In this document: positions 34,926 through 60,696 of the stretch, one piece after another
How positions within the stretch are numbered: position 1 is the first letter of the stretch
How the letters are laid out: the number at the start of each line of letters is the position of its first letter
Assembly: GCA_951406725.2 (NCBI GenBank)
Contig: OX597824.1
Span: forward strand, 86,490,001 to 86,554,000
Direction of reading: 5' to 3'
Length of the DNA stretch: 64,000 bases
Origin: Octopus vulgaris
Taxonomy: Eukaryota
Notes under the pieces: model-generated
Told to the model about the DNA's origin: nothing
Database searches by the model: none
Seen by the model: only the letters and a program-made list of their open reading frames with translations
Translations under genes and position numbers: made by a program

Positions 34926-34933
34926 GATTAGAC

Positions 34934-36440
34934 TGTTGGAAAAGAATCCCAACATCGGGCTACAACAAGTAGCCTTAGATGCCAAAAACCCGCCCAAGTA
35001 TCTTAGCTGTCCCTAATAACACTGTCTTCTGCAGTTGTACTAAATTTGGTTTTATGCCTATTCCCTCTATCCATCTGTTCAGATCTTTAGGGATTGTACC
35101 CAATGCACCTATAACTACTGGGATACATTTTTACCTGCATTTTTCATAGTCTCTGTAATTCAATAGCTAGGTCCTGGTACTTTGATATTTTTTCTATACT
35201 TCCCATATTAATTTTTTCATCATTTGGGACTGTGAAGTCAACTATCTGGCATCTTCTATTCTCTTTATCTACTACTACTAAACCAGGCCTTCTAGCTTCT
35301 ATTACTCTGTCAGTCTGAATGTTAAAGTCCCACAGTATCTCGTATTTCTTACTTTCTAGTACTTTACTAGGTTCCTGTTCATACCATTTATCAGTATATT
35401 CAAATCCTAGCTTTCTACAAAGCTCCCAGTACATTGCTCTCCCTAGACTGCCATGTCTTTTCTTGTATTCATTCTGTACCATCATGCTACATTTACTTAC
35501 TATATGAGTAACGCTTTCCTCTTTTGATTTGCATAATCTACATTGGGAATCTACTTGGTTTTTATATATCTTCGCTTTTATCCAATTAGTCCTTAATGCT
35601 TGATCTTGTACTGCTACTAACAAACTTTCTGTCTCCCTCTTCAGCTTTCCCTTCTGCAGACATAACCATGTCTCACTACTACTATTTGCTGAAACTATCT
35701 TTGGGAATCTACCATGCAACACCTTCTCCTGCCAGTCAGATAATTTCTGTTCTTTTTTCTGGTTTTTGAGTTAGTTTGGTGTTTTGGTTTACCTATGTCT
35801 TGCTCTGACTCTATCAGTTTTTAATAAACTTTCTTCACTATTACCACCTACATAGTAGCCTATATCTACTCCAGCTAACTCCATGCAGTCTTCCACTGAT
35901 ATTAACCCTCTTCTACCTTCCTTTCTAGATAGGTACAATATTGCTACTCCTGCTCTTGGGTGGAGTCCTCCATTCATATTGAACTCCTTCCTAGTTCTTC
36001 TGTCTAGTTTTGCTGATTCAGTTTTTGTCCAATCTACAAAAGCTGCCGGGTATCTAAGTAATGATACTACCCAAGTATTTACAGCCTTCACTAGATTCAG
36101 ACCGTTTAGCTTTGATTTCATTACCTTCCTCGTCCTTCTGATGTACTCCTGAATTTTCGCTTTCATTTCTGTAATTAGTACCTTGTCAAATTCTAATACT
36201 CCTAGATACTTATAACTTTCTCCTCCTTTCAATGATTTTAAATATCTGGCCATCTGGTAATTGGATGCCTTCACTGTTGACTACCTGTCCCCTTCTCATG
36301 ACCAATATCACACACTTATCTATGCCAAATTCCATGCCCATATCTTTGCTAGAGAGTCCTACAGTCTGTATTAAGGAACCTATCTCTTTTCATTCTTACT
36401 AAAAAGCTTCAGGTCATCCATGTAAAGCAAAGAATAGTTA
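34934..36440 (-). mobile_element. Degenerate R4/Dong LINE (RT end plus REL endonuclease)
   Basis: YMDDLKL, YKYLGV, CRLCKSKEESVTHIVSKC, ILWDFNIQTDRVIEARRPG. Confidence 0.9.
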
Positions 36441-37029
36441 CATTTTCTCCCTCAGTTACAGCCTCAGGGTGGTGCTTGTACCATTTGTCAGCAGTTTTGA
36501 TTTTTTAATGCCGACGCATTATCGAATGTAGATATTGGCCAACTTTGTCATGTACTTGATTTGTACTCTACAGGTGCTAAAACCTTACATCCGGAGATTA
36601 GATGGTCGACTATTTCTATACCATCGTTGCAGTATGGATCTTCACCGTTTTTCATCACATTGGCTTGATAGTTCCGGGTCAGTAAGCTCTGATCTTGAGC
36701 AACCAAGATAAAACCGTCACTCTCTGCCTTTAGCCATGAGCTCCGTAGCCACTGATGGCTACTGGTCAGCAACACCAAACATCTGCAGGTATTCAACGAT
36801 TCAAGAACGTGGTACCGTATCATATGCCTTCTTAAAGTCAATCCAAGCCATAGACATATTTATATGATGCTTTTCACAATGCCTCAAAACTGTTTTATCG
36901 ACGACCAGATGACCCTTGTTACCCTGAGAACTCTTCCTACAGCCCTTTTTGTCCACTTGGTACTATTTCTTCCTGTGCCAGGAAAGTGTATGTCTTTGCC
37001 GCACAAATTCCAATGAGTATCTTCCAAAT
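36441..37029 (-). mobile_element. Rearranged R4/Dong fragments
   Basis: WIDFKKAYDTVP (RT) is joined to HQWLRSSWLKAESDGFILVAQDQ, similar to the 37270 element. Confidence 0.75.
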
Positions 37030-37031
37030 TA

Positions 37032-37102
<71 letters not shown>

Positions 37103-37104
<2 letters not shown>

Positions 37105-38558
37105 TTTTTTTTTCTTCTTTCAAATTTGCTTCCATTTCTTGCCGAGTGTCTTCCCGACTCCTAGGGCAAAGAAACTCATAGTATACATTGGTAGGCCATT
37201 AAACCAAACTCAGTAGTTCGTTCTTTTTTTTTTTTAAGTTAAATTAAAATACATGAGCAGCAACAGTTCTCACATCGACAATGCTCTTCTCAATACGTGT
37301 GATGTACCAGTTAAGACAATCTTTTGCACTTCTTGCAGGGATGGTAAGCCAGGGATCATTCTCATATAATTTTCGGTTCCCTTCTTGATCATTCCTAGTG
37401 CTCCTACGATCACTGGTATTGTAACCGCCTTGAGATGCCACATTTTCTCAATTTCAATGAGTAGGTCTTTATATTTTCTGAGCTTGTCAAACTCTTTCGC
37501 TGAGATATTATGATCACAGGGGATGCTCATGTCGATCAATAAGTAAACTTTATTGTTTTGGTCTTTCACAACAATATCTGGTTTATTGGCCTTGATGGTT
37601 CGGTCTGTATGTACTGGAAAGTCCCACAGAATGGTTACATTTTCTCCTTCAGTTACAGCCTCAGGGTGGTGATTATACCACTTGTCGGCAGTTTTGATAT
37701 TGTAATGACTTATTAGCCAGTGGAGATATTGGCCAACTCTGTCATGTCTTAATTTATACTCCACGGGTGCTAAGACTTTACATCCAGACATTAGGTGGTC
37801 CACTGTTTCAATCATGTCGTTGCAGAATCGGCATTTTGGGTCTGCTCCATTTTTCATCACATTGGCCTGGTAGTTCCGGGTTAATAGGCTTTGATCTTGA
37901 GCAGCCAGGATGAAACCTTCGCTCTCTGCTTTTAGCCCTGAGCTCCGTAGCCACTGATGGGTTTGCTTCTGGTCAACATCAGCTTGTTTGCTGCGGGTCA
38001 CATATTTGCCGTGCAGAGGTTTCTCCTCCCACCTATCAGCCAATTGCTCGTGCGCTTTTTTCATTGCCATCATTTTCACCTTCTTTGCAACAATAGTTGC
38101 CGTACTTCCCTCGAGTTGTTCAGTTTGGGTATCCTGCACGAGATCAATAGCAAATTTTTTGCTTTCCTTTATGATAGAATGAAGCTTCTTTCGTCTCTCG
38201 TGATTTTCCACGAGCTTTAGCATCCAGTCATTCGATATTTCGAGATATTTGGCCAGTCCAATTGTGGTTGTTTTGTAAGCTAGTTCAAATTGGATCAGGC
38301 CTCGACCTCCTTGGGCTCTGGGAAGGTAAAGGCGATCTACGTCTGCCTTTGGGTGGTGCATCCTATTACAACTCAGCAGCTTGCGTATTTTTCTATCTAT
38401 ATTCTTTACTTCACTCATATTCCAGTTCAACACATTGTAGCTATAAGTAACAACTGGAACTGCTAAGGAATTTATAGCTAACACCTTGTTACGTGCATTT
38501 AGTTCAGATTTCAGGACTGCACGAACTCTCCTATAACATTCCTTCCTGATTTTCTCTT

Positions 38559-38562
<4 letters not shown>
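37103..38562 (-). mobile_element. Young 5'-truncated R4/Dong LINE inserted in a (TAA)n tract
   Basis: Uninterrupted 430-aa ORF (37270-38562) with CRFC..HLMSGC, RHD, KPDIVV and EFDKLRKY; long (TAA)n tracts on both sides (about 37030-37102 and 38561-38622). Confidence 0.93.
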
Positions 38563-38624
<62 letters not shown>

Positions 38625-38639
38625 GAAAACTCAGAGCTT

Positions 38640-40870
38640 ATTTTGCTCGATATTATGGAAAGTGCTAGCTGTCCATTGCCAGCAGACTAAGGTGACACTT
38701 GTTTACTGCTCATGCTTCAAGAACCCTATGAAGAATTCTTGCAGTTTCAAGCAATGCTGATCCACCTTCACACTTGCACCGAACTTTTTCGGTCATGTTG
38801 GTAGTTGAGTGCTGATACTTCCAAGTACACTAATTACTATTGGTGTCACATCTACTCTTTTCATTGACCACAATCTTCGTATTTCCCACTTTAAATCGTC
38901 GTAGTTTTTGGGGTTTTTTTTTAATGTTTTCTTCTTTCACATTGATCCTGTTGTCACCGGGGCATGCTATGTCGCTAATCATACATGTTCTTTCTGTTTT
39001 TATTTACCACAACAGTGTCCGGTTTCCTATGTCTGGTCAAGTGATCGCACTGGATCATTACATCCCACAGGATTTTGCAATTCTCATTTACGGTTACTCC
39101 TGTAGTTTGTCCATACCACGGTCTTTGCTCTTTGTAAGTTGTGATTTCTACAGAGCTCCCAATGGATCATTCTTGCCACATTGTCATCGCATATTTTCTA
39201 TTCGTGTTGTGCCAATTTCGGGCATTCGCTAACGATGAGCCATACCCCCTCTCACCACACAATCTGCATTTGTCGCTATCGGTAGTGTTGTCAATTCTGC
39301 ATTTCACATAGTTAGTCCTTAACACTTGTTCCTGAGCTGCGCATGAGTGCTTGTGTCTCTATCTTCATGTCACTCCTCCTCATCCATATCCACCGCTCCT
39401 CTGTATCTGTCTTGGCGTTCACATCTCTTGCAAACTGACCGTACATTTTTTCCCATCCCTGCTTTTTCTTTCTTTTTTCTTTTCTTTTTTTTTTGTTCAT
39501 CTCTTGTTTAAATTTTTCTTTAATTAGACAATTTTCAGTTTTGATGGCGCCGGCCTTCTTCGTGTGTTTCAACAGTGGCTTCACAACATCTTTTTTCTGC
39601 TTCGATAGAGTCCTGGCAACTATTCTAACCTCTCCCACCCTCTTCTTCAGGACAAGTACAGTCTATCGGTGTCACTCTTAGGGTGAAAGGCTCCGTATAC
39701 TGCCAACATGTTTTCTGGTCTTGGTATCCATTTTCTTCACTTCTCACTTTTGCCATTTTATAATTCCCGCTCCATACCGAAGTGATGCTATTGCCCACGT
39801 ATTAATTGCTTGGATTTAATTGCATCCAGTCACTTTTGAGCGCAGCCCCAACCTCAGTCTTCGGAAATACTCCATCCTCAGTTGCTCTTCCATTTCCTTT
39901 TCCGTTATCTCGTTGCACCCTAGTACACCAAGGTATTTGTATCCTTCCGTTTCAATTTGCTTAACTAAGTCTCTGTTCGATAATTCTATCTCTGCTAGGG
40001 ATTGTGCCTTACTTCTTTTTAGGTGGATTTCTCCGTACTTCTTGAGTCCAAATTCCATTCTAATATCAGTACTAAGACAGTGGCCCGTGTTCATTAAGGA
40101 ACTCACTTGTATCTCATCTTTGCCATACAGTTTCAAATTACCCAGGAAGAGGAGGTGGTTGATTGTTTGGGGTTTTCCTTTAGTTGGTACCCCAGGTTCA
40201 TTTTCCTGAGTACCAAGTTCAGGGGTATCATGCAGAGAACGAAAAGCAACAGAGAGAGGCTGTCACACTGGAAAATCCCTCTTCTAATACCCGGGGTGCC
40301 CGAGGTTTTTCCGTAAAATGTCACTTCAGTTTTCTATCCCACAATACTTCTCTTCGGTAAACACTTTACAGTCCTCGCAATTCCAAACAGATCTAAGCAT
40401 TCGATGATCCACGAATATGGAATCATATCCTAAGCTTTGCGATAGTCAATCCAGGCCGTTCCCAGATTTGTTCTCCTTCGTTTACAATCTTGCATTACCA
40501 TTTTGTCTATCAACAGTTGATCTTTGGTACCTCTGCACCTCCTTCTACACCCTTTTTGTTCCGTCGGTAATATATCGTTCACATCAAGAAATTTATACAG
40601 TTCTTCTGCAATTCCTCCTGACAGTAACTTCCATATTAATGAGAGACAGGAAATTGGTCTGTAATTGTCAGCAACATTTTCCTTTTAATGTATCCTTCAG
40701 GCACAACACCGTTCGTCCTGTTGTCAACCAGCTCGCGATTTTATTTCCATTGATCAATGCATTAAATTGTTCTGCGATCAACTTATGGCAACTACTGAAC
40801 TTTTTTTTTTTTATCTAAGATCCCTATACACCATCAGGTCCTGCTGCTTTCCAACTGCTTATCTTTTTAC
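38640..40870 (-). mobile_element. Older R4/Dong LINE remnant
   Basis: IRRGIFQCDSLSLLLFVLCM, MEFGLKK, YKYLGV, MYGQFARD; frameshifted. Confidence 0.85.
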
Positions 40871-42575: not shown

Positions 42576-42689
42576 CGTTCTGTGTGTGCGTGTATCTATG
42601 TGCAAACTGTTGTTGAACCGCTAAGTTACAGAGGTGTATACAAACAAGCGCTGGTTTTCAACCGGTGGGAACAAATGCACACACACACA

Positions 42690-44470
42690 CGACAGAGTTC
42701 CATATAGTAGTCTGAAGGAGCAAGTTCGGGAGAATAAGGTGGACGAGGAAGTTTTTCCCAACCAAGTTCTTCGATCTTCTGTGATGTGATCTTTGCAGTG
42801 TAGTCACGCATTGTCCTGATGAAACATCACTCCTTTTCGATTCACTAAAGCGGGTCATTTTTTTCTTCAAAGCTTGGTTCAAATGCTCTAATCGCTGACA
42901 GTAGACTTGAGCATTGATTGTTGCATTATGTGGTAACAATTCAAAGTGAATTACTCCTTTGCAATCCCACCAGATAGAGAGAAGAACATTTTTTCCATGA
43001 AATTCCCTTCTCGGGGGTGGTTGAGCTTTTTCCCTTTTACCAAGCCTCTGTTTACGACGTTTAACATTTCGATAGAAGACCCATTTTTCGTCACCAGTCA
43101 CAAGTCTATCTAAAAAGGGTGAAATGAGTTTGCGAGAATGGAGTGAAGAGCAGATGTCAACTCGGGATTTGCGGTTGCTTTCGGACAATTCATGAGGCAC
43201 CCATTTTCTAAGTTTAGGAATCTTTCCGAGTTGTTGAAGATGACGATGAACAGTTGTATGGTTTGAACTAAGCTTTATTGCCAATTCTTCAACTGATAAT
43301 GCAAGATTTTCTTTAAGTAATGCCTCAAGGAGTTTATCATCAAACTCAACTGGACGTTCTGTTCGATCTTTATCTTCAAGGCTGAAATCTCCGCTTCTGA
43401 ATTTTGCAAACCATCTTCTGCAAGTTCTTTCATTCTTTCCCATAAACTGAGTGTATGTTTCGAGTCGCTTTGGCTGCAGTTTCCTTTATGTGTCCCAAAT
43501 GCTCTTTGGATACTTCCATGTTAGAAAGGATTTTAATCAAAGAATGTTTAATTCTATTATTCTGTAAAATAATATTTAATTAGTTTAAATGTACATAAAT
43601 GTGTAGTGGATCTTGCAAGCATGAAGTGGATTCGATCCACCATAGCCAAATTTAAATTAACACTGCAACAGAACTTTTCCCACGGTGGAACAATGTTTTT
43701 TTTGGTTTTTTTCTCTGACAGCAGTTTTACATTTTCCAGATGCCTTTAGCTAGGCCGAAATAATATATTCACCACTTGACCCTTTCTAACCTCTTCTACT
43801 TCGCCAAAGGCTAGAATAGAGATGACAAGACCACCAACTAAATTTATTGTTCTCAATGATATGTCTGTCCTTCTGGATAGTTATAAAAACAAGAACACCC
43901 CAAGCAAAAATCAGTCGGTGACGACTCAATGAGTCCAGTCACATGGCGACCACTCAACCAGGTAGTCACTTCAGGGACAATGAAGTCTGGCCGACCGGCT
44001 AGAACCTTGGTCAAAGGGAGAAATGAAGTTTACCGTCAGCAACTGTGAGACAACACCCTACAATTCTCACTAGCTCTAATTCTGTTCTCTTACATCATTC
44101 TATTTCTCTCTGTAATCACTACTAAACAATGAAGAGGAGACAAACACAAACTTTACTTCGCATGCTTTTGGATTTATCATAACCTGCCCGTCGAGGCAAG
44201 GTACTGTAACGTATCGGTAAATATATATCTCCTTAAAATTTCATGCATTGTTCATCTTTCATATCCTACAACATGCAATTATAACAACAAATTTTTATCG
44301 TTACAACTGCTGACTCCGACATTTCATAATATCGTTTACAAATCAATTTCTCCCGTTACAAATGCATAAAAATAAGTTTTCATTCCATTAGACATTCTAA
44401 AATACTATTAAATTTCATTCAATTTTAAAGAAGGTAAAATCGGACAGAACTTATGGAATGACCTGATATA
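42690..44470 (-). mobile_element. Mariner transposon split by a solo LTR
   Basis: 261-aa ORF with WVPHEL and LVTGDEKW; frameshifted QDNA and PPYSPELAPSDY; TIR-like end GGACAGAACTTATGGAATGACCTGATA at about 44442-44468. Confidence 0.9.
43602..44360. mobile_element. Solo LTR (759 bp)
   Basis: TGT...ACA termini with a 4-bp TSD AATG (43598-601, 44361-64). Related fragments at about 17082-17260 (inverted) and 19790-19910. Confidence 0.75.
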
Positions 44471-47315: not shown

Positions 47316-47507
47316 TACGTGACCGAAATTATGCCTACGTGAGATTTTACAGTTTACAAAATTAACCTACATCTAAAGATTAGATTATTTAAAATACGCA
47401 CACTATGTTTGCCATGTAAACAAATATACATAGATATTTCGGAATTTTATCGCGTTTGTGTTAGTTTAACAACTATATAAGAGGTTAACTCAAACAATTC
47501 GACAGTT
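47316..47507 (+). promoter_or_regulatory. Candidate core promoter of GPx
   Basis: TATATAA at 47474-80 with Inr-like ACAGTT at 47502-07 about 30 nt downstream. Upstream are GTAAACA (forkhead-type, 47416-22) and two TACGTG (47316-21, 47336-41). Confidence 0.4.
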
Positions 47508-47536
47508 GGCTGCAGTAGAGCCTGTCAGTCCAGTTT

Positions 47537-47599
47537 ATGGTAAAGGCACCGAGAAGTGGTGGAACTGAAAAGCTCTCGCACGTTTTTCGTCTTCGGAAG
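47537..47599 (+). CDS. Candidate first exon of GPx (in-frame N-terminal extension MVKAPRSGGTEKLSHVFRLRK)
   Basis: Non-repetitive segment ending in a strong donor AAG|GTATGT (47599/47600). It has 63 nt from ATG and splices in frame to 58721 (AAT AGA ACA ATG). The link to GPx is inferred. Confidence 0.5.
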
Positions 47600-49294
47600 G
47601 TATGTGTGTGTTTTCGGGACTTAAAATTACATCAATTACCTTATTATATCATAGATTACGTTTTTAATTGTCTTGTTTATTATCTATTGATAAACAAAGC
47701 AATGACCATTAAGCAGTGTCGAAGACGTTCGGTGCTATATATCTCCCTGATAAAATGTAATTATAGGGTACCATAAACAGTACCCTTTCAAGTAGTCGGA
47801 CCCTACTTCCTAGCAATTACTTACATTTTTCATTTCTTCTGAACGAAATATGTGAGGTGAAAATCTTAAAAATCTTTAAAAGAATGTGAACTGTACTTCA
47901 TATAAATTTTAGAGGGCCGTTGCTTTTCTTTTTACTTACTCGCATGTATACATTTATCAAACATATGATTTTGAAGTGCCTTCGATTAAAGGAAATTTAC
48001 CGAAATTCCCCCCCCCCCCTACAACACACAACTTGTGGTGGAGGTAAAGAATTCGTACACCACCCGTTTTCGGCGGTTAGGGTCAAGTTTACGGTTAGGG
48101 TCACGCCGAAAACGGGTGGTGTGCGTATTCTTTACCTTCGCCCAATTTGTTACCATAATTTCGAAAAGCTTTCTGCGTGTTCTAAAATATATTGTAGAAT
48201 TTTCTCCTAAAGTATCTTCTTTTGACACTTTGAACTTGATTTACTTTAACCCATAGGCGCTGGGGGGTTGCACTTACATAGCATGGACTGCTAAGCACAT
48301 TTTATGAAAATGAGACCTCCATGCACACACACACAAAAATTAGTTAAAATATCTTCTTAGTATATAATGGTGGCAAGTTTTACATCATCTGAAAAGTCAG
48401 TTAAAATATTAGTCCTCTTGCTTTCTGGTGGGTATCGGAGCATTTGAGTCACATTAGACCCCAACAAATGCTCATAAATGCATCTATCTTGGCCACGATC
48501 GTAGCCTATCGACATGTGTCTGAACGGCCACGATCGTGGCCCGTCACGCTTTATGTGTTAAGCAGTGTTATAAATACTATAATCCCGTGTAATCGGTTTT
48601 GTTCGAAATACTTCACAAACACAGCTAAATTACTGAACCACATAGAAAATGAAAAAAAACCTTTCTTCTCTTTTTTTTCTCTCCTTTTTCTTTTTTCCAC
48701 CCTCCCCGCTTCGGTTTTTCTTTTGTAAGAACATATTACGGTAGAATCGTAACTAGGCACTATTGTTCAGGATTTGTATTTTAATGTGGTTTTGTATTAT
48801 ATATTATATACATGCGCTGTGCTCTTTTGTGGCATAACTACAGAATTGGGCCCCTTCTCCACTTTTGTTTCCACCCACAACTTTGTAAGAAAAATATACC
48901 TAATGATATATTCTAATGATAGTTTCCATAGGTGCATTTTAAATGATACAGATAAAAGTGATAAAATTTGTAAAAAAAAAAAAATTCTTTTTAATTGGGG
49001 GTGGGGGAAACGGGTATGTCCTGTCCCACCATCGACTTTCTTCAACTTTTTTAAAATACGTTTTTTTTTAATGAAATTTTCCGAAGATACTTTTTTGAGG
49101 GCGTAGATTACGATTATCCAGATATTATTTGTAACAAACAAACAAACAAAAAATAACAATAATAATCGTAATCTACACCGTCGAAAACTTAGCTCTCTGG
49201 AAAATTTCATGAAAAAGCATTTTTTTAAAGAAAGTAATGCATGCCGGGAGAGTGAGGAGAGAATTATCCGAAGCCCATCCAAAGAAATTCTTTT

Positions 49295-49715
49295 GGCGAT
49301 CTTTCTTCTCTAGTAGACCTTTCCGTCGATTTCCGTAAAAAACTTTTATTTTTTTACATATGGGCTTGCGGGAATTTTTGAAGTAATGAGAGCGAAAGAG
49401 ACTAAGAGAAAGCGATTGTATGACGAGGGAAGTTCTTTTGAAGTTACCGTGCATGGGACGCATTGATGTACATGTGTGTGTGTGTGTGTTTGATGGGGTG
49501 TGGGAGACAGACAGTATGTTGTGTAAGTGAAGTGCTTCTGTTAGTGTGTGTGAAGAGACAGAGTAATGTGTGAAAGAAAGAGATAACTGAAATTTTTTAC
49601 TCGGTGTATGTGTATATGTATGTATATTACTTCAAAAGCTCCCGCAAGCCCATATGTAAAAAAAAAAATTTTTACGGAAATCGACGGAAAGGTCTACTAG
49701 AGACGAAAGATCGCC
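49295..49715. mobile_element. MITE with about 90-bp TIRs and 8-bp TSD (Merlin-like)
   Basis: GGCGATCTTTC..CTAGTAGACCTTTCCGTCGATTTCCG / inverse; TSD ATTCTTTT at 49287-94 and 49716-23; GG termini. Confidence 0.85.
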
Positions 49716-50107
49716 ATTCTTTTCTTGCAACTTTGACATAATTGTTATCTACACACCTAAAATGTACTTTTTGAAAAATTGTTACAAAAACATGTTTTAA
49801 AGATTTTAAGAAAGTTAATAGGGAACCGAAGTCGTTGGCAGGGGTACTATATTTTTTTTTAGCGTGGCTGTGCGGTTGAAAAGCTTACTTCGCAACCGTG
49901 TGATCTTTGGTTTGGTCCCACTGCACGGCACCTTGGTCAAGTTTTTTCCGCCATAGCCTTGGGCCAGCCAAAGCTTTTATGAGTGAATTTAGTAGGTGAG
50001 ACCTGAAAGAAAAAAGAAACTTGTTGTGTGTGTAGTGAAATCGTCGTCGTGGCTGATCTTTAAATGCTGGGCCTCATGGAGGTGATGAAAAATGACCGAG
50101 ACCTTTG

Positions 50108-50936
50108 TGGAGGCACATGGCCTAGTGGTTAGAGCAGCGAACTCGCGGTTGAGGGATTGCGGGTTCGAATCTCAGACCGGACGAGCTGGCAGAAACATTA
50201 GCACGCCGGGCAGAATGCGTAGTCGTATTTCGTCTGCCATTACGTTCTGTGTTCAAATTCCGCCAAGGTCGACTTTGCCTTTCATCCTTTCGGGGTTGAT
50301 AAATTAAGTACCAGTTACACACTGGGGCCGATGTAATTGACTTAATCTGTTTGTGTGTCCTTGTTTGTCCCCTCTGTGTTAAGCCCCTTGTGTGTAATAA
50401 AGAAACAGATATGTGTGTTTACGAGCGAAACACCTAAGCTCCACTCGGCTCTGGCAGAAGGTAATGACGAACTTCTGCTGACTCTTTCGCCACAACATTC
50501 TCTCACTCTTCCCTCCTGCATCTTGCAGCTCACCTGCGACGGACCGGTGTCCCATCCAGGTGGGGAACCTATATGCCAAGGAAACCGGGAAACCAGCCCT
50601 TAAGAGCCAGGCGTGGCTTGAGAAGGAACAACATGGCCTAGTGGTTAGAGCAGCGGACTCATGGTTGAGGGATTGCGGGTTCAAATCTCAGACCGGATGA
50701 TGTGTGTGTTTATGAGCGAAACACCTAAGCTCCACTCGGCTCCGGCAGAAGGTAATGGCAAACTTCTGCTGACTCTTTCGCCACGACTTTCTCTCACTCT
50801 TTCCTCCTGCATCTTGCAGCTCACCTGCAACGGACTGGCATCCCGTCCAGGTGGGGAAACCTATATGCCAAGGAAACCAGGAAACCGGCCTTTATGAGCC
50901 AGGCATTGCTCGAGAAGGAACAAACAAAAAACAAAA
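50108..50936 (+). mobile_element. Tandem dimer of SINE family C' with a SINE B inside the first unit
   Basis: Two units with heads ATGGCCTAGTGGTTAGAGCAGCG (about 50117 and 50633) inside one 13-bp direct repeat ACCGAGACCTTTG (50095-107, 50937-49). Confidence 0.8.
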
Positions 50937-51547
50937 ACCGAGACCTTTGGCAATATGCTGTGCTTGAGTAGAAGACTTGTGGTGTATGCAAGAGATTCGA
51001 AATAAAGGCACCTACCTTCTCTTCGCTCAGATGGAGACCCTTCAGCGGTAATGGATCCTTCAACACAGCCCGACCCGAACGCTAGAGATAGCAGCTGCTT
51101 CCCCCAACCTTAACGTGATGACCCGTCTTACCCGCTCAGCAACCTGACTCGAAAGGACAGAATCCTGCCCTCGCTGCACGCGCATCACCGCTGTCCCTTC
51201 CGGTCAGCCCCAAGTTCCGGTCAGCTCCCCAGCTGCTGATGTCATCCCACAAGACTCATCAAGCCAAGTGAAATTGTAGTCGTGGCTGTTGCTGGTGTCA
51301 TATAAATGGCACCTAAAGAGTTCCTGTTACACTCTTGGAGTCGTTGGAGTAAGGAAGAGCATCCAGCTGTAGAAACCATGCCAAATCAAACTGGAACATG
51401 GGGTAGCTCTCCAGCTTACCAGTTCCGATCAAACCGTCCAATTCTTGCCAGCATGGAAATCAGACATTAAGTGGTGATAATGATGATGATGGGTGTTTGT
51501 GTTTGCCTGCCCACCTCCACTGCTTGATAGCTGATGTTGGTTTGTTT

Positions 51548-51930
51548 ATGTCCCCCAAGTTGTGGCAACATGACCGGGCAGTGAAAGTGCTACACTGGAA
51601 ACTTTGCAGAACGTTGGAGCTAGAGAGAGGCAAGATATGGTATAAGCACAAACTGCAAAGAGTGGCAGAGTCGGAGACTAACAAAATCCTCTGGGATTTT
51701 CCCAATCCAAATAGATGAGATGCTAGAGCATAACAGACCACACCTAGCAGTGGTGGACAAGGTGCACCACATGTGCTATATAGTTGAAACTGCATGCTCC
51801 TTTGACCCATGAGTAGTCAAGAAGGAAGGCAAAAAGATAGACAGATAAATACAACCCAGCCCGACTATGGAAAATGAAGAAGGTGAAGATAATGCCAGTT
51901 ATTGTTTGATCCTTGAGAACAGTATCAGAA
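51548..51930 (+). mobile_element. R4/Dong LINE endonuclease fragment
   Basis: HDRAVKVLHWKLC..KILWDF..HNRPHL. Confidence 0.7.
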
Positions 51931-53473
51931 GGCAACTTCTTACCACAAAACTAGAGCTGCATTTATAGCCAGTTATAATTAATAAAGCTTATAAACACAG
52001 CAGTTGTTACGTGTCTATATTTCACTACCCTCCCCCAAGGCTTAAATAAACAAAACTATCATGAGCTTACATGCTTTCTTATTTCTTTATTGCCCACAAT
52101 AGAGGGGACAAACAAGTACAGACAAACGGATTAAGTTGATTACATCGACCCCAGTGCGTAACTGGTACTTAATTTATCGACCCCGAAAGGATGTAAGGCA
52201 AAGTCGACCTCGGCGGAATTTGAACTCAGGACGTAGCGGCAGACAGGCTTACATGCTTTCTTATTTCTTTACTACCCACAAGGGGCTAAACATAGAGGGG
52301 ACAAACAAGGACAGACAAATGGATTAAGTTGATTACATCGACCCCAGTGTGTAACTAGTACTTAATTTATCGACCCTGAAAGGATGAAAGGCAAAGTCGA
52401 CCTCGGCGGAATTTGAACTCAGAACGTAGCGGCAGACAAAATACCTATTTCTTTACTACCCACAAGGGGTTGAACATAGAGGGGACAAACAAGGACAGAC
52501 AAACGGATTAAGTTGATTACATCGACCCCAGTGCGTAACTGGAACTTAATTTATCAACCCCGAATGGATGAAAGGCAAAGTCGACCTCGGCAAAATTTGA
52601 GCTCAGAACGTAACGGCAGACGAAATACGGCTACGCATTTTCGCCCACTGTGCTAACGTTTCTGCCAGCTTGCCGCCTTAATCTACTATGGAGATTTATC
52701 AGTAAAAATATTATTTGTAAACAAAATTTTTTTTTTTTAAATTCCAACCCATTGAAAAAGTATAGATTGGTGTAGAAAAAGATATTTTGGAGACAACATA
52801 AACTTGTTTTGGAAAAAGCAAATGAAATATAGACAAGGTGTGTTTACATCCCCGTCACTTAGCGGTTCGGCAAAAGAGACCGATAGAATAAGTACTGGGC
52901 TTACAAAGAATAAGTCCTGGGGTCGAGTTGCTCGATTAAAGGCGGTGCTCCAGCATGGCCGCAATCAAATGACTGAAACAAGTAAAAGAGTAAAGCAAGA
53001 ATCAGTAAGAATGTTTGTAGGTGTTATCAATTATGAAATCATCATTATTTAGTGTCTGTTTTTCATGCTGGCATGGGTTGGACAGTTTGACAGTAACTGG
53101 CAAGACAGAGAGCCACACCAGGTGACATTGTTTTGGTATGGTTGCCCTTCTTAATGCCAACCAGTTTAGAGTGAACTGGGTACTTTTTATGTGGCACCAG
53201 CACAGCATGGCACCACCACTTCCCAAATATAAGAATAATTTTTTTTTCTTATCCATTGTTTTTTTGTAATAAATAAATTAAATAGAAAAGTTCTAATTAA
53301 TTTGAGAATTTATATATCATTGCTATTTTAACATCTACTTTTCCATGCTTTCTTTGAAACTGGCACAGCATTGGTTACAAGGGTTCCAGTTGATGTAATC
53401 AGTGGAACACCCTGCTCATGAAATTAACGTGCAAGTGGCTGATCACTCCACAGACACACATACCCTTAACATA

Positions 53474-53999
53474 CCATAAATCCTCAAGTATAGTCCACCC
53501 TTGAGTATAATATGCAGGGGATTTTAAGAGGAGGTGTACCTCTGGAAAACCTAAACCTTGTGTATAATATGCACCCCTTCTCTAACTTGAGTCATGCATA
53601 ATTAAGCCAGCAGCACCGAGTCGACCAAACACTTCCGCGCATGCGTAATACAATAATAGTGATGTTCTTAACTGTTATATGGGAATGTAAATATGTTTGC
53701 AAATTATTTTTGTTTCATGTTATTCTGTGTTCTGAATACTTTTATTTTAATAAATGTTGCTTACTGCAAGTTATGGATGATTCTTTTATGACTTCATTGC
53801 TTTCAGGCTTAGCTTAAGGTATTTTCACGCCCGACATCACAAAATGCGTCTAAATAAAAACATTGCCAGACAGCAAATAGAGACTCGGACATTGCTTAGA
53901 AAATATTTTTCATTTTTAACCTCATATATAGTATGCACTAGGGATTTTGACCTTTAAATTTTGGAGAAAAAAGTGCGGATTATACTCGAGGATTTACGG
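53474..53999. mobile_element. pogo/Tigger-like MITE inserted in an older SINE
   Basis: TIRs CCATAAATCCTCAAGTATAGTCC / GGATTATACTCGAGGATTTACGG; TA on both sides. Confidence 0.8.
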
Positions 54000-55839
54000 T
54001 AGTTCTCAGGAAGATTCAGTATGACAGAGAATGTAATAGGGCTGGCCCTTTGAAATACAGGTACTACTCATTTATGTTTAGTGAGTCAACTGAAGCAATA
54101 TGAAATAAAGTGTCTTGCTCAAGGACATGGTGCGCTGCTGAGAATCAAACTCACAACCTAACAATCGTGAACTGAATGCCCTAACCACTAAGCTATGTGC
54201 TTTCACTTTCCATTGATAAAGTAGATATCAAAATGTCCAGAATGTTTGTTGTTCAAATAGACCAGGATATTATTTCCCTGCTTGGAAACAAGTTGGGGAG
54301 GAGGTCATGTCAGGAAGGGCAGCATCCAGTCAGAAAACTCTGCCCCATGCAGGCAGCCATTTGATTCTATAATACTTGGAATCATTTGTCCTCATCCCTC
54401 ACTTGTTTATTACCGACCCTCTAATTTATATTTCATGAAAAGAAATGAGGTTTCAAATATATCTTTAAAATAGGAAACGAAATCTTTGTTAAATACTCCC
54501 TCTCTCTACCGAATGTGTGGTGCTTTTTCTGTGGCACCGGCACTTCCCAAATATAAGAATGAATCTTTATTATCTGTTTATTAACATATAGGCGCAGGAG
54601 TGGCTGTGTGGTAAGTACCTTGCTAACCAACCACATGGTTCCAGGTTCAGTCCCACTGCGTGGCACCTTGGGCAAGTGTCTTCTACTATAGCCTCGGGCC
54701 GACCAAAACCTTGTGAGTGGATTTGGTAGACGGAAACTGAAAGAAGCCCATCGTATATATGTATATTTGTGTGTGCATGTATGTTTGTGTTTGTCCCCCA
54801 ACATCGCTTGACAACCAATGCTGGTGTGTTTACGTCCCCGTCACTTAGCGGTTCGGCAAAAGAGACCGATAGAATAAGTACTGGGCTTACGAAGAATAAG
54901 TCCTGGGGGTCAACTAAAGGCGGTGCTCCAGCATGGCCACAGTCAAATGACTGAAACAAGTAAAAGAGTAAAGAGAGTATATACAACAGGCTTCTTTCAG
55001 TTTCCGTCTGCCAAATCCACTCACAAGGCTTTGGTTGGCCCAAGGTTATAATAGAAGACACCTACCCAAAGGTGCCACACAGGCTATAGTGAAGGCACTT
55101 GCATAAGCTACTGCACAGCGGGACTGAACCTGAAACCACATGGTTGGGAAGTGAACTTCTAAACCACACAATCATGCCTGCACCTATATAATTTTTTTCA
55201 AAACACTCACTTTTTCACAAAGGAAGGAGTGTCTTGAAATGGGGTTAGGTTGGCTTCTTACGTCATTTGAGGGGTTCAGTTTATTTGTAAAAGACACTTG
55301 AACAGGAAATTCTAGTGAGGTGCAGTCTTATTAAGTGTTGGTGTAAATGTGAGATATAAGATTGTTTGTTTACATTACATTCTTCTCTTTGTCTATTTAT
55401 TAATATGTAATTCAAAAATTCCCAAAATATGAACATTCCCATTTGTATTACTATCTATGCCAAAATTATTTTGCAGCATGGAAGTGTGTATGTCTTGCAA
55501 ACAACTTGCACATGCAAGTGCTACCAGTTAAAAGCTCCGTATACCGGAAGCTAGCAAGTGTATGGGGTCATCAGGAGAGAATGCGCGCCGTTTCGGGGCC
55601 TACCTCTCGACAGCATCAATGCGCACCAGCCCCACTTACTAATATGAGGCCCCGCTTGCTAGATCAGCTGGTTATGAAGAACTCAATATACTTCTAGCCA
55701 CTGCTCATCGTCTCTTTTTAACCAAATCCAGTGGCTAGCCTTCTCCACTGTAGATTGGATATCAGTCATGGTGGTATTGACTTTACAATGAGTTAAGCCT
55801 ATCAATAACAACAGTCGTCTCACGCTGTGTCCAACAAAC

Positions 55840-56180
55840 CCTCTACATTTAAAAACATAAAAACCATTAGATTCTCTTCAACATTTAAATTTAATTTGTC
55901 AAAATATTTTCATCGCTTTGAAGCTGCAACCTGTTCACTGGCAAAATTCCTGCATGGCACCTTGGGCAGGTGTCTTTTATTACAACCTCAGGCCAAACAA
56001 AATTTATCATTGAACACGTCGCTGTTTCAAAGCTTTGACAAATTAAATTTAAATGTTGAAGTGAATCTAACGGTTTTTGTGTGTTTTTAAATGGCTTATA
56101 AACACCTTCCACACTGCAATTGTTTTTGTTTCAGCACACAATCTCAGATCAAGTCACTTGCTATGCAAGTACATCTCCGT
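55840..56180. mobile_element. Inverted pseudo-LTR-like repeat pair (second Penelope-like family)
   Basis: 55850-55950 is inverted against 56000-56090; it shares sequence with 46998-47145 and carries the G3:C8 hammerhead-like motif. Confidence 0.55.
55896..55944 (-). ncRNA. Hammerhead-like motif with G3:C8 variant core
   Basis: The - strand reads TTGCCA-GTGAACA-G-GTTGC-agcttcaaa-GCGAT-GAAA-ATAT-T-T-TGACAA, the same architecture as the U3:A8 motifs. Confidence 0.5.
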
Positions 56181-57837
56181 AAAATTATTATGCCCAAGTA
56201 CAATTCAATTTAAATATATACAACATAGAGATAACCAATCCGATAGTTCAATATCTTCTAATTGAACATTGGATCAGTTCTTAGGTAAGTTTATCTCTAT
56301 GTTGTATATTTTAATTTTTTGTAAAGGTGTTCCAAACTCTTTTATTCTTTTACTTGTTTCAGTCATTTTGACTGCGGCCATGCTGGAGCACCGCCTTTAG
56401 TTGAACAAATCGACCCTGGGACTTATTCTTTGTAAGCCCAGTACTTATTCTATCGGTCTCTTTTACCGAACCGCTAAGTGACGGCGACGTAAACACACCA
56501 GCATCGGTTGTCAAGCAATGTTAGGGGGACAAACACAGACGCACAAACATACACACGCACATATATATATATACATACATATATACGACGGGCTTCTTTC
56601 AGTTTCCGTCTACCAAATCCACTCACAAGGCTTTGGTCGGCCCGAGGCTATAGTAGAAGACAGTTGCCCAAGATGCCACGCAGTGGGACTGAACCCGGAA
56701 CCATGTGGTTGGTAAACAAGCTACTTACCACATGACAGACTTCCTTCAGTTTCCATCTACTAAATCCACTCACAAGGCTTTGGTCAACCCGAGGCTATAG
56801 TAGAAGACACTTGCCCAAAGTGCCACGTAGTGGGACTGAACCCGGATCCATGTGGTTTGTAAGCAAGCTACTTACCATACAGTCACTCCTGCTAATTTTT
56901 CTAACTGGACCAGGTTCCAGTCTGATTTAGCATGGTTTCTATGGCTGGATGTCAGTCCTAAAGCCAACCACTCCACAAGGTGTACTAGGTGCCATTTGTG
57001 TCACTGGCACAGGTGCGTTTTATATATCACCATCAATTTGTGTTGTTTTTTTATAATTTGCATTGGGCATCCAGCTGTAGAAACTCTACCAGATCAGATT
57101 GGAGCCTGGCACAGCCATCTGGTTCGCCAGTCCTCAGTCAAATCCAGTCTGATCTGGCAGTGTTTCTACAGCTGGATGCCCTTCCTAACGCCAACCACTC
57201 CGTGAGTGTAATGGGTGCTTTTTACCTGCCACTGGCACATCAGCTTAATAATGACAAAATTATTTTAATAAATTCTGCAGTATATTCTGCGCAATGGCCT
57301 AGTGGTTAGGGCAGCGGACTTGCGGTCGGAGGATCGCGGTTTCGATTCCCAGACCGGGCGTTGTGTGTGTTTATTGAGCGAAAAAAACACCTAAAAGCTC
57401 CACGAGGCTCCGGCAGGAGGTGGTGATCCCTGCTGTACTCTTTCACCACTCTAAAGGCGGTGCTCCAGCATGGCCGCAGTCAAATGACTGAAACAAGTAC
57501 ACAAAAAAAAAAAAAAAAAATATTCAAAATTAATTGAAATGAAACCAGTGTACTTCAGCAGAAATTTGGTAACAAAACAGTTAAGAGGGTCTTGTACAAT
57601 TATTCACGTTCTGCAATTTTTGATTTCTGTTATTTTTCTTTTACCTTTAACTAGATCTTCCTGATAGTTTTCCAATTGCTCTTCAAGGAATTAACAGGTT
57701 TCTCTTTTGCAATTCTTTTTGAACCTGTAAGGAGTATAATGAATACATCAATTTTTGCATATGGTCTGTAAGATTCTTGATGTGAACTTGGGCATCAAAA
57801 CATTTTATTGTATCTCAGGAGGTTCATCATGTCATTA

Positions 57838-57911
<74 letters not shown>

Positions 57912-58729
57912 GGAGGTGAGCTGGCAGAGTCGTTAGCACACTGGACGAAATGCTTAGCAGTATTTCGTCTGTCTTTACGTTCTGAGTTCAAATTCCGCCG
58001 AGGTCGACTTTGCCTTTCATCCTTTCGGGGTCGATTAAACAAGTACCAGTTACACACTGGGGTAGATATAATCGACTTAATCCGGTTGTCTGTCCTTGTT
58101 TGTCCCCGCTGTGTTTAGCTCCTTGTGGGTAGTAAAGAAATAGGTATTTTGACTGCTGCTACAGTCTGAGTTCAAATTCCGCCGAGGTCGACTTTGCCTT
58201 TCATCCTTTCAAGGTCAGTAAATTAAGTACCAGTAAAACACTGGGTCGATATAATTGACTTGTGCTCTCCCCAACAATTTCAGGTCTTGTGCCTATATTA
58301 AAAAGGATTAACACAAATACACACTCGTTCTATTTCACTTCTTTATTTTATCATTAGTTAATTAATTAATCAGTTGTTTGATTAATTGTTCAGTCAGTCA
58401 ATCAATCAGCCAGATTGATCAAAATCTTTTATCACTCACAATCTCATCAATGACAGGCCCTCTTTATTCCAGCTCTGCTTTAGTTGATGAAATGACTTTT
58501 ACAAACTTAAGTTGATTGATTGACCAAACAATTACTGTAAATCCTTGAGTATAGTTCGGAGATACAAATATTACAAGTACCAGTTACGCACTGGGATTGA
58601 TGTCATCGACTTAATCCGTTTGTCTGTCCTTGTTTAGCCCCTTGTGGGCAAAAAAAACTAGCCCCAAAACCTTAATTATTATCTTACAAATACCTTTTTT
58701 TTTTTTTTTTTATTTTTCAGAATAGAACA

Positions 58730-58951
58730 ATGACCACAATTGCTAAAAGCTTTTTTGAGCTTTCAGCCAAAACTCTGAAAGGAGAACATATTGACTTCAG
58801 TCGCTTCATGGGTAAAGTTATCCTGGTTGAAAATGTAGCCTCACTATGAGGCACGACGACACGGGATTACGTGCAGATGAACAAGCTGGTCTCTCAATTT
58901 GCTGATAAGCTTGTTGTTCTGGGATTTCCATGTAATCAATTCGGATTTCAG
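58730..58951 (+). CDS. GPX: Selenoprotein glutathione peroxidase (GPx1/GPx2-like), main coding exon A, containing the Sec codon TGA at 58847-58849
   Basis: Acceptor (T)n-cag ends at 58720. Translation from ATG 58730: MTTIAKSFFELSAKTLKGEHIDFSRFMGKVILVENVASL-U(TGA)-GTTTRDYVQMNKLVSQFADKLVVLGFPCNQFGFQ. It contains the GPx motifs NVASLUGTT and LGFPCNQF. Phase-0 donor CAG|GTTTGT at 58951/58952. Confidence 0.96.
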
Positions 58952-59849
58952 GTTTGTAAAGAAACCCTTGCTGTTGCTAACCCTTATTTGATTTCCAAAA
59001 GATGTCTTGTTCTACATGTTTTCAAAGGTTCAATACCAACAGATAATTTTGTTGAGTAAGGAAATGACAGCTATATACGTATGTGTACTTGAACTCACAT
59101 ATGTGTGAGTATATGTATGTGTGTGTATAGATGTAAGAGGTGCATGGCTTAGTGGTTAGGGTGCTGGATTTGTGATTGTAGGATTCATCATCATCATCGC
59201 TTAACGTCCGTTTTCCATGCTAGCATGGTTGGACGGTTCAACCAGGGTCTTGGAAGCCAGAAGGCTGCACCAGTCTGATCTGGCAGTGTTTCTACAGCTG
59301 GATGCCCTTCCTAATGCCAACCACTCCATGAGTGCAGTGGGTGCTTTTTACGTGCTACCGGCACAGATGCCAGGCGAGGCTGGCAAAAGGCCATTATCGG
59401 TTGGCGCTTTTTTCATCCTTTCGGTGTCGATAAAGTACCAGTTACGCACTGGGGTCGATGTCATCGACTTAATCCGTTTGTCTGTCCTTGTTTGTCCCCT
59501 CTATGTTTAGCCCCTTGTGGGTAGTAAAGAAATAGGTTGTGTAGTAAGAAGTTTGATTCCCGACCACATGGCTCTGGGTTCAATCCCACCACATGGCACC
59601 TTGGGCAAGTGTCTTCTACTATAGCTTCAGGCCAACCAAAGCCTTGTGAGTGGATTTGGTAGACAGAAACATGTGTTAGTTGTTTTACCCATGACTGCCT
59701 AGAAGGAGTCCTGGGGCCAATTTGTTTGAGTAAAACTCTTCAAGGCTGTGCTCCAGCATGGCCAGAATTGAATGAATGAAGCAAAAAAGAATAAAAGAAT
59801 ACGACTTTGTATGTTTTTTTTTTTTTTATATTCTCCTTGTTTCTCATAG

Positions 59850-60200
59850 GAAAATGGAAATGGCGAAGAAATATTGCTGTCCCTTCAAAATGTCCGTCCA
59901 GGAAATGGTTTCAAGCCCGATTTTACAATCATGGAGAAAGTGGAAGTCAACGGAGAAAACGCTCATGCTGTGTTCCAGTTCTTGAAAAGCCAACTACCTT
60001 ACCCAAGTGACGATTCTACCAGTTTTATGAAAAGCCCTTCCAGTATTAACTGGGCTCCGGTGAAACGAAATGACATCTCTTGGAATTTTGAGAAGTTTCT
60101 TGTAGCACCCGACGGTAAACCATTTCTTCGATACAGTAAATCCTTCCAAACAATAGAAATCCAAAAAGATATAAAATCCCTAATTGAGAAGTTCTCTTAG
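59850..60200 (+). CDS. GPX: Glutathione peroxidase, terminal coding exon
   Basis: Acceptor ttctcatag ends at 59849, phase 0. Translation ENGNGEEILLSLQNVRPGNGFKPDF...KVEVNGENAH...WAPVKRNDISWNFEKFLVAPDGKP...KFS*. It has the WNFEKFL motif and the tetramer-type insertion of GPx1/2. Spliced CDS is 74+116 = 190 aa. Confidence 0.96.
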   Translation, partial: ENGNGEEILLSLQNVRPGNGFKPDFTIMEKVEVNGENAHAVFQFLKSQLPYPSDDSTSFMKSPSSINWAPVKRNDISWNFEKFLVAPDGKPFLRYSKSFQTIEIQKDIKSLIEKFS

Positions 60201-60365
60201 GATGGGGCCAAGGATCTGGTCTTAAAATGTTTTAGTGTAGCTTAGTTTAGTTTCACACAAAAATTCTTTAGTTTCAATTCTCTGCCATTTATGTGGAAGG
60301 GTAAAAAATAATGACTTATTCCATAAAGACTGATGTTATGAAATTTCTTCCTTCAAAACTGAATT

Positions 60366-60429
60366 AAGTGAACATGACATGGTAACAATAAAGTTAAAAA
60401 CTTGTTATCGTAGATTTTTATTCTCACTT
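60366..60429 (+). promoter_or_regulatory. SECIS element (form 2) in the GPx 3' UTR
   Basis: AUGA at 60374-77; helix II AUGGUAACAA (60379-88) / UUGUUAUCGU (60402-11) fully paired including G:U; unpaired AAA at 60390-92; mini-helix GUU/AAC; 3' AGAU at 60412-15; helix I AAGUGA (60366-71) / UCACUU (60424-29). Confidence 0.9.
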
Positions 60430-60477
60430 TGATAAAGTTTTTCTAGTAAATCATTTCATATAAATCCTTCTTTTTGT

Positions 60478-60483
60478 AATAAA
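60478..60483 (+). terminator. Poly(A) signal AATAAA of GPx (distal)
   Basis: Canonical hexamer downstream of the SECIS, followed by a GU/U-rich tract at about 60503-60525. Confidence 0.65.
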
Positions 60484-60696
60484 AATGCCTATTTCATCAG
60501 CATGTTCTTTTGTTTGTTTGTTATTTGACTGCGGCCATGCTGGGAGCAATGCTTTTAGTCAAACAAATTGACCCCAGGAGTTATTCTTTGTAAACCTAGT
60601 ACTTATTCTATCAGTCTTTTCTGCCGAACTGCTAAGTTATGGGGACATAAACACACCAACATCGGTTGTCAAGTGATGGTGGGGAGACAATCACAG

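What the first reader, a model, noticed from the sequence alone, without database searches (positions are those of the whole stretch)
58730..60429. Selenoprotein GPx hidden from the ORF track by UGA recoding, with a complete SECIS
Seen: an in-frame TGA at codon 40 inside ENVASL*GTT, an otherwise intact two-exon 190-aa CDS, and a form-2 SECIS about 170 nt after the TAG stop. Known: GPx1/2 use Sec at this motif and need a 3' UTR SECIS. Inference: this is a functional Sec-GPx that automated annotation would probably truncate or mis-start.
Basis: partly seen in the sequence, partly recalled or inferred. Interest (0 to 1): 0.75.

Follow-up and report, generated by a model that had tools for sequence, protein, structure and literature searches.

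The report
Octopus selenocysteine glutathione peroxidase gene
This spliced, polyadenylated octopus gene encodes a peroxide-detoxifying enzyme whose internal stop codon is very likely read as selenocysteine with the help of a hairpin in its 3' untranslated region; one public gene model skips that exon, but the enzyme type is long known, so this is an annotation fix rather than a surprise.

Summary
Real, and ordinary. Exons 58730-58951 and 59850-60200 give a 190-codon GPx1/2-type frame with TGA at the catalytic codon 40 and the rest of the tetrad intact. The GT-AG junction stands in contigs of 4 of 4 runs laid; one ends in poly(A) at 60502. The hairpin 173 nt after the stop matches the published strict SECISearch pattern (15 of 2000 UTR shuffles hit). 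Rfam SECIS_1 misses it, but also misses strict-pattern elements behind two TGA-bearing paralogues, so that negative says little. The genome holds tRNA-Sec, SepSecS and eEFSec. Close relatives read W under TGA=W or start after the site; none shows Cys. GenBank model CAI9730588.1 skips the Sec exon. Corrections: a further exon probably lies at 47504-47599, and its in-frame ATG would add 24 residues (link inferred); the SECIS core is UGAC/AGAU, one base off the UGAN/KGAW consensus; form 2 is favoured, not certain. Sec insertion itself is inferred, not measured. The scan noted this kind of hidden Sec-GPx before in at least 18 other genomes (the 8 shown are bacterial).

The parts
47474..47481 (+). 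TATA-like box (TATATAAG), 30 nt before an initiator-like CAGTT; probable promoter (inferred)
   Evidence: Sequence; motif scan. Motifs and spacing are recalled consensus.
47504..47599 (+). Probable exon 1 (start inferred). Single ATG at 47537 opens 21 codons, phase 0, donor AAG|GTATGT; in frame with exon 2 it would give a 24-residue basic N-terminal extension (214 aa, Sec at codon 64)
   Evidence: Single copy in G000; first coding exon of GenBank model CAI9730588.1; spliced contigs carry 60-138 extra 5' letters. Those letters were not displayed, so the link to exon 2 is inferred.
47600..58720 (+). Probable intron 1 (11,121 nt), ending in a long T tract and TTTCAG acceptor
   Evidence: Sequence; inferred
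58721..58951 (+). Exon carrying the conserved start ATG (58730, A at -3), Sec40 and Gln74
   Evidence: (PF00255, 80.7 bits)
58847..58849 (+). In-frame TGA at the catalytic position, likely selenocysteine; 102 nt upstream of the last exon junction
   Evidence: no other letter listed at these places in 4 runs
58952..59849 (+). Intron, GT-AG, phase 0, between FGFQ and EN; holds interspersed repeats
   Evidence: Joint in 4 of 4 runs from 4 studies; spliced ends in 2 more runs
59850..60502 (+). Last exon: residues 75-190 (oligomerisation loop, Trp152, Asn153), TAG at 60198-60200, 302-nt 3' UTR
   Evidence: UTR single copy in G000
60366..60430 (+). SECIS element: lower helix, UGAC/AGAU core (60375-60378 / 60412-60415), 9-bp helix, AA at 60390-60391, probable form-2 apical helix
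   Evidence: no change core-to-core in 4 runs of other organism labels, one pair-keeping A>G at 60366
60478..60483 (+). AATAAA polyadenylation signal; poly(A) added after 60502
   Evidence: 24-A loose end at 60502 in run X2; contigs end at 60499-60504

Best explanation
This is an intact, spliced octopus gene of the GPx1/GPx2 type whose in-frame UGA is likely decoded as selenocysteine, directed by the SECIS hairpin in its 3' UTR, to give a likely tetrameric, glutathione-using peroxidase. Shown: exon junction, poly(A) site downstream of the hairpin, TGA at the catalytic position, Gln74/Trp152/Asn153, a strict-pattern SECIS, and tRNA-Sec, SepSecS and eEFSec in the genome. Inferred from family knowledge: the core forms a kink-turn bound by an SBP2-type protein, eEFSec delivers Sec-tRNA to the UGA, the selenol reduces H2O2 and small hydroperoxides and is recycled by two GSH. 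Because the UGA lies 102 nt before the last junction, the mRNA would be a nonsense-mediated-decay target when selenium is short, if the mammalian rule holds in octopus. The main product is probably the 190-aa form from the ATG at 58730; a 214-aa form from a probable upstream exon is possible.
For: Frame and TGA. PF00255 on both exons. PDB scores for the last exon: GPx1 144.2, GPx2 143.9, GPx5/6/3 97-81, human and mouse GPx4 entries 31 bits or less; the Sec exon is closest to GPx2, 96.7 bits. Junction in 4 of 4 runs, poly(A) in 1 of 4. Strict SECISearch pattern from the supplement of PMC3753652 matches; shuffles 15 of 2000; the structure also meets the SECISearch3 filter limits read (stem 7-15, loop 8-30, energy below -4; core-open energy -9.0). 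Relatives: P0125, P0161, P0162, P0149, P0048 show W at the site, as a TGA=W translation gives; P0004 (Argonauta), P0005 and P0123 start just after it. tRNA-Sec(UCA) at 3 of 4 loci checked, SepSecS, eEFSec. Two paralogues have TGA at the same site and strict-pattern SECIS downstream on the sense strand. Coding changes in other runs: 2 silent, 3 missense (G41D, V89I, A112T), no stop or frameshift.
Against: No Rfam SECIS hit at this site. Hairpin stability not above shuffles by plain folding. 3' side of the core is AGAU, not KGAW (PMC3753652 passage). SECIS conservation in relatives is not significant on prior boundaries (0 of 14 variable UTR places in 60374-60415, P 0.12; 1 of 14 in 60366-60430, P 0.16), and those relatives are too close to show covariation. 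Of five basic GSH-binding residues of bovine GPx1 only two Arg and one Arg>Lys remain. The runs are RNA by guess only. No protein-level evidence of Sec. SBP2 was not searched.
Confidence: 0.93

Rival explanations
1. Same selenoenzyme, but the main or a major product starts at the ATG in the probable exon 1 (47537), giving a 214-aa form whose basic 24-residue extension could target it to mitochondria or nucleus, with leaky scanning giving the 190-aa cytosolic form (as recalled for mammalian GPx4). Compatible with the best explanation.
For: Only ATG in the exon, phase 0, in frame through the 9 nt before ATG 58730; 7 K/R, 1 acidic, 4 S/T; first ATG a scanning ribosome would meet; the GenBank model starts there.
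Against: Exon 1-exon 2 link not displayed by the tool. Weak context (T at -3) against A at -3 downstream. Related proteins P0125, P0161 and P0149 start near the downstream Met. Hydrophobic moment only moderate (max 0.54 within the extension). No octopus protein of 204 aa or more found.
Confidence: 0.3
2. The off-consensus SECIS core (C opposite A) is weak as encoded and is tuned by A-to-I editing of A60412, which would give the consensus KGAW.
For: A60412 lies in UAG opposite C60378 at the end of a helix, the context ADARs prefer (PMC10244592 passages); extensive editing in coleoids is recalled knowledge.
Against: No A>G at 60412 in contigs of any of 8 runs, though contigs drop minority variants. 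The strict SECISearch pattern accepts NGAN. ADARs generally need more than 20 bp of duplex, and SBP2 binding would shield the core (inference).
Confidence: 0.04
3. The TGA is a true stop: a transcribed pseudogene or NMD-fated transcript.
For: No Rfam SECIS hit; no protein evidence.
Against: Stop exactly at the catalytic codon and shared with squid-like, oyster and other relatives; frame otherwise intact and 96% identical to a sister protein; strict-pattern SECIS; it is the only GPx1/2-type locus found in G000.
Confidence: 0.02
4. The 137-aa GenBank product (exon 1 joined straight to the last exon) is the real protein.
For: It is the public model.
Against: All 4 runs and 2 join the Sec exon to the last exon; no displayed loose end shows the skipping joint (many rows were not shown); the product would lack Sec40, Gln74 and the first 67 positions of the Pfam domain. 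It fits the 'Skipped' misannotation class of PMC12822975 (section 11).
Confidence: 0.02
5. UGA is read as another residue (Trp after editing to UGI, or Cys by near-cognate readthrough).
For: Editing-rich lineage (recalled).
Against: No A>G listed at 58849 in 4 runs; Trp would remove the catalytic residue; SECIS and Sec machinery are present.
Confidence: 0.01

Closest known systems
Vertebrate GPx1 (human 2F8A, bovine 1GP1) and GPx2 (human 2HE3)
   Same: Sec motif, Sec-Gln-Trp-Asn tetrad, oligomerisation loop, length about 190 aa, 3' UTR SECIS, UGA upstream of a last junction; near-equal scores to both. GPx2 is reported as vertebrate-specific (PMC3316567 passage), so the octopus gene is best called a GPx1/2 co-orthologue.
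   Different: FGFQ instead of FGHQ before the catalytic Gln (shared with P0123, not with Argonauta); bovine K91', R184, R185 are N78, K171, S172 (human GPx2 has Q, R, T); SECIS probably form 2 where mammalian GPx1 is form 1 (PMC2673426 passage); core UGAC/AGAU; probable upstream exon with an in-frame ATG.
Molluscan GPx1/2-type proteins (Argonauta hians GAB1609696.1; Magallana gigas cluster P0009/P0142; unnamed Logan proteins P0005, P0123, P0125)
   Same: Nearest rows in the tree: window + P0123 (97/89), + Argonauta (99/97), + P0005/P0125 (95/88); same site read as W or cut off in their records. Cloned molluscan Se-GPx cDNAs with TGA and SECIS are recalled, not checked.
   Different: 66-96% identity; their SECIS elements could not be read here.
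GenBank model CAI9730588.1 / UniRef A0AA36BAP3, labelled Octopus vulgaris glutathione peroxidase, 137 aa
   Same: Its last 116 residues are identical to the last exon, and its first 21 are encoded at window 47537-47599.
   Different: It omits the whole Sec exon, so it lacks Sec and the catalytic Gln.
Other GPx loci of G000 (C23:13.94-13.97 Mb GPx3-like; C23:50.58 Mb GPx4-like; C2:54.53 Mb; C28:28.32 Mb Cys-type)
   Same: The two C23 loci also carry TGA at the catalytic site and a strict-pattern SECIS.
   Different: 38-51% identity; their cores are consensus (UGAC/UGAU and UGAA/GGAU).

Membership tests
Glutathione peroxidase (PF00255) | GSHPx domain above the Pfam cut-off | tested here: met
   80.7 and 33.6 bits on the two exons, cut-off 27
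Glutathione peroxidase (PF00255) | Catalytic tetrad Sec/Cys, Gln, Trp, Asn (PMC4204031 passage) | tested here: met
   TGA40, Q74, W152, N153
GPx1/GPx2 subfamily | Closer to GPx1/2 than to GPx3/5/6 or GPx4/7/8 | tested here: met
   PDB scores 144 against 97-81 and 46 or less. Tree separates it from GPx3-like rows (96/96), but the 38%-filled GPx4-like fragment fell in the same large group, so the tree does not test GPx4.
GPx1/GPx2 subfamily | Oligomerisation loop of tetrameric GPx | tested here: met
   Gap-free alignment to human GPx1 and GPx2 over residues 75-187; tetramer itself not tested
GPx1/GPx2 subfamily | Basic GSH-binding residues R57, R103, R184, R185, K91' (bovine numbering, PMC5952877 passage) | tested here: inconclusive
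   R45, R90, K171, S172, N78: three of five basic, as many as human GPx2
GPx1/GPx2 subfamily | GSH-dependent peroxidase activity | not testable with these tools
   Needs an assay
Eukaryotic selenoprotein gene | In-frame UGA at a conserved Sec/Cys position in a spliced mRNA | tested here: met
Eukaryotic selenoprotein gene | Sec machinery in the genome | tested here: met
   tRNA-Sec, SepSecS, eEFSec; SBP2, PSTK and SPS2 not searched
Eukaryotic selenoprotein gene | Selenium present in the protein | not testable with these tools
   Needs 75Se or MS
Eukaryotic SECIS element | GA/GA core, helix 2, unpaired apical AA, helix 1 (SECISearch strict pattern) | tested here: met
   Pattern read, re-implemented
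[quoted passage not shown]
   626 nt from UGA; poly(A) after 60502
Eukaryotic SECIS element | Core consensus UGAN/KGAW (typical, not required by the patterns) | tested here: not met
   UGAC/AGAU: A where G or U is usual; the patterns accept NGAN
Eukaryotic SECIS element | Covariance-model hit | tested here: inconclusive
   Rfam SECIS_1: none here, none at two control elements, none genome-wide with 129 of 47,867 candidates scored; SECISearch3 model not available
Form-2 SECIS | Extra apical helix | tested here: inconclusive
   Pair probabilities 0.50-0.74 at 37 C and 0.73-0.93 at 18 C; competing form-1 pair 0.34 and 0.24

The most novel reading that the evidence does not exclude
The octopus GPx1/2 SECIS carries its off-consensus A in the ideal ADAR context (UAG, opposite C). 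A-to-I editing there would restore the consensus core and make selenocysteine insertion an editing-controlled switch, possibly together with a second, organelle-targeted start from the upstream exon. No case of editing inside a SECIS core appeared in one search (the SELENON case, PMC9076623 abstract, concerns a splice site).
Probability: 0.04. Interest if true: 0.7.

Novelty: new member of a known kind. Interest (0 to 1): 0.2.

Why it matters
It corrects the model of the only GPx1/2-type locus found in this octopus genome. The GenBank protein lacks the catalytic half of the enzyme, so proteomics databases, primers and orthology sets built on it miss the active site, and work on oxidative stress, selenium nutrition or mercury binding in octopus would be misled. 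[quoted passage not shown] The small leads worth a cheap check are the probable upstream in-frame start and the off-consensus SECIS core.

Tried and rejected
Rfam scans of the window, the UTR and the 91-nt hairpin: no SECIS; the weak snoRNA, CRISPR and sRNA hits are chance. Genome-wide RF00031: 0 matches, uninformative. Rfam on paralogue loci: only low-complexity miRNA noise, then nothing at gathering score. My first hand-made SECIS descriptor (1 of 116 primary matches passed; 4 of 5000 shuffles) used a recalled pattern and thresholds set after seeing the site and missed the GPx3-like control, so I rely on the published patterns. The 76-nt invariant stretch 60367-60442 (P 0.016) has boundaries chosen after the fact and is not counted as evidence. 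No RNA holder is listed as RNA on record; 8 of 23 listed runs were laid. Searches for a longer octopus protein (3 hits, none cephalopod by name) and for an N-terminal fragment (4 hits, none octopus by name) neither support nor exclude the 214-aa form. A colinear, unspliced 5' end (transcript starting near 58650) fits the contig lengths as well as exon 1 does; I rank it lower because of the strong acceptor, the TATA/initiator/donor set at 47.5 kb and the GenBank model, but it is not excluded. Paper searches for an octopus or cephalopod Sec-GPx or selenoproteome listed none; the library lacks most subscription journals and one supplement file of PMC3753652 was not searchable. A RefSeq record with U for a related octopus may exist; none appeared. 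No structure or complex prediction was run: solved close homologues exist. Earlier notes near this place: none.

Full report
Joining 58730-58951 to 59850-60200 gives 190 codons plus TAG across a GT-AG, phase-0 intron, with one internal stop, TGA at 58847-58849, codon 40. Both exons match Pfam GSHPx above cut-off. The last exon is identical to the C-terminal 116 residues of a public protein labelled Octopus vulgaris glutathione peroxidase, so the window is octopus DNA.

Subfamily. Against solved structures the last exon scores 144.2 bits with human GPx1 and 143.9 with GPx2, 97-81 with GPx5/6/3 and 46 or less with the monomeric types, and aligns without gaps through the oligomerisation loop. The Sec exon is closest to GPx2. 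The tetrad is TGA40, Gln74, Trp152, Asn153 (definition from PMC4204031, passages). A 28-row tree groups it with an unnamed octopus-like protein, Argonauta and two unnamed proteins (95/88), apart from GPx3-like rows; it does not test GPx4, whose fragment was only 38% filled. GPx2 is reported as vertebrate-specific (PMC3316567, passages), so 'GPx1/2' is the right name. Of the five basic GSH-binding residues of bovine GPx1 (PMC5952877, passage) the octopus keeps two Arg and has Lys, Ser and Asn at the others; human GPx2 also has three of five.

Transcript. Contigs of 4 of 4 runs from 4 studies (RNA by the tool's guess) skip exactly this intron; one ends in 24 A after 60502, 24 nt from the start of AATAAA at 60478, so the hairpin lies in the mature mRNA. 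Two more runs under other organism labels show the same spliced end. No other letter is listed at the TGA. Coding differences in the 8 runs laid are two silent and three missense changes, no stop.

SECIS. The element has AUGAC, nine contiguous pairs, AA twelve bases after AUGA, a short apical helix, AGAU and a 6-bp lower helix. I read the SECISearch patterns and filter limits from the supplement of PMC3753652 and re-implemented the patterns. The strict pattern matches at 60374; it gives 9 hits in 128 kb of window, any hit in 15 of 2000 UTR shuffles and none as stable. Results against: Rfam SECIS_1 finds nothing here, plain folding is not better than shuffles, and the 3' core is AGAU where the consensus is KGAW. 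The Rfam negative carries little weight: two paralogues in the same genome have TGA at the catalytic site and strict-pattern elements with consensus cores downstream, and Rfam missed both at gathering score. In four runs of other organism labels, 14 places vary in the 302-nt UTR, none core-to-core and one in the lower helix that keeps a G-U pair; this is suggestive only (P 0.12-0.16). Table 8 counts more gaps in two DNA contigs than table 4 lists, so the list may be incomplete. Form 2 is favoured over form 1 by pair probabilities but not settled; mammalian GPx1 is form 1 (PMC2673426, passages).

Relatives and machinery. Related proteins show W at the site, as a TGA=W translation gives (P0125, P0161, P0162, P0149, P0048), or begin at a Met just after it (Argonauta P0004, P0005, P0123). 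Cys at the site appears only in two vertebrate UniRef rows and in P0001, where the tools write C for U. The genome holds tRNA-Sec with UCA anticodon at three loci, a multi-exon SepSecS and eEFSec.

Annotation. GenBank model CAI9730588.1 (137 aa) joins 47537-47599 straight to the last exon and leaves out the Sec exon: the 'Skipped' class of PMC12822975 (abstract and section 11 read), which reports only 5% of vertebrate selenoprotein genes well annotated in GenBank.

A T-rich acceptor ends at 58720, and spliced contigs run 60-138 nt further 5'. The stretch 47504-47599 is single copy, has a TATA box 30 nt before an initiator-like motif and a strong donor, and is the first exon of the GenBank model. 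It is probably exon 1, but the tool did not show the contig letters, so the link is inferred and a colinear 5' end is not excluded. Its only ATG is in frame and would add 24 residues with seven K/R. Its context is weaker than that of the downstream ATG, and relatives start near the downstream Met, so I expect the 190-aa form to dominate.

Mechanism. Shown steps are listed above. Inferred from established selenoprotein biology: SBP2-type binding to the kink-turn core, eEFSec delivery of Sec-tRNA, a selenol cycle recycled by GSH, a tetramer. With the UGA 102 nt before the last junction, the 50-55 nt rule (PMC4105750, passages) predicts decay of the mRNA under selenium shortage; untested in octopus.

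Novelty. New member of a well-known kind. Five paper searches listed no description of this octopus gene (listings only, subscription journals mostly absent). Earlier scan notes report hidden Sec-GPx genes in at least 18 other genomes; they did not change my reading. The boldest reading left open is editing of the off-consensus A60412, which sits in UAG opposite C, the context ADARs prefer (PMC10244592, passages); contigs of 8 runs show no G there, so I give it 4%. Verdict: real, correctly read, low surprise; interest 0.2.

Noticed in passing
G000:C23:13944694 (L007) and L020:2437 (+): GPx3-like paralogue with TGA at the catalytic site and a strong strict-pattern SECIS (UGAC/UGAU, upper stem -14.3 kcal/mol) about 2 kb after its last matched exon; a second probable hidden selenoprotein.
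   Followed up: partly
G000:C23:50588311 (L009, -) and L021:4530 (-): GPx4-like paralogue with TGA at the catalytic site and a strict-pattern SECIS (UGAA/GGAU, long lower helix) about 1.5 kb after its last matched exon.
   Followed up: partly
G000:C2:54.53 Mb (L003, L024, L025): Divergent GPx3-like locus whose catalytic codon appears to lie at an exon boundary; residue not determined, no convincing SECIS in 10 kb downstream.
   Followed up: partly
L010, L011, L012: Three tRNA-Sec(UCA) loci; two on contig C24 are 57 kb apart, inverted, with equal scores. Most animals are recalled to have one; the pair may be a recent duplication or an assembly duplicate.
   Followed up: no
window 58851: Run X2 reads A here, changing Gly41 next to the Sec codon to Asp; the oyster cluster also has Asp at this position. 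Probably an allele.
   Followed up: partly
window 60387-60392: An AATAAA lies inside the SECIS stem; cleavage after it would cut the element. Run X19 shows a contig break at 60372 with a depth drop, unexplained; no poly(A) end was listed there.
   Followed up: no
window 58951/59850: Unnamed genomic ORFs P0006, P0007, P0013, P0016, P0161, P0162 leave or enter the frame at the same Q^E point, which suggests this intron position is shared beyond cephalopods; PMC2679728 (passage) proposed a vertebrate origin of GPx1/2 and its introns.
   Followed up: no
window 3648-5721: Tandem array of a 119-bp unit, 17.5 copies, 95% matches, next to a 2.7-kb ACAT-type microsatellite at about 6800-9500.
   Followed up: partly
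window 18323-19210, 31523-32008, 33483-40262, 42658-43485: Open frames that look by eye like decayed LINE reverse-transcriptase, mariner/Tc1 and hAT-type transposase pieces; no other host gene was evident in the window. Not scanned against families.
   Followed up: no
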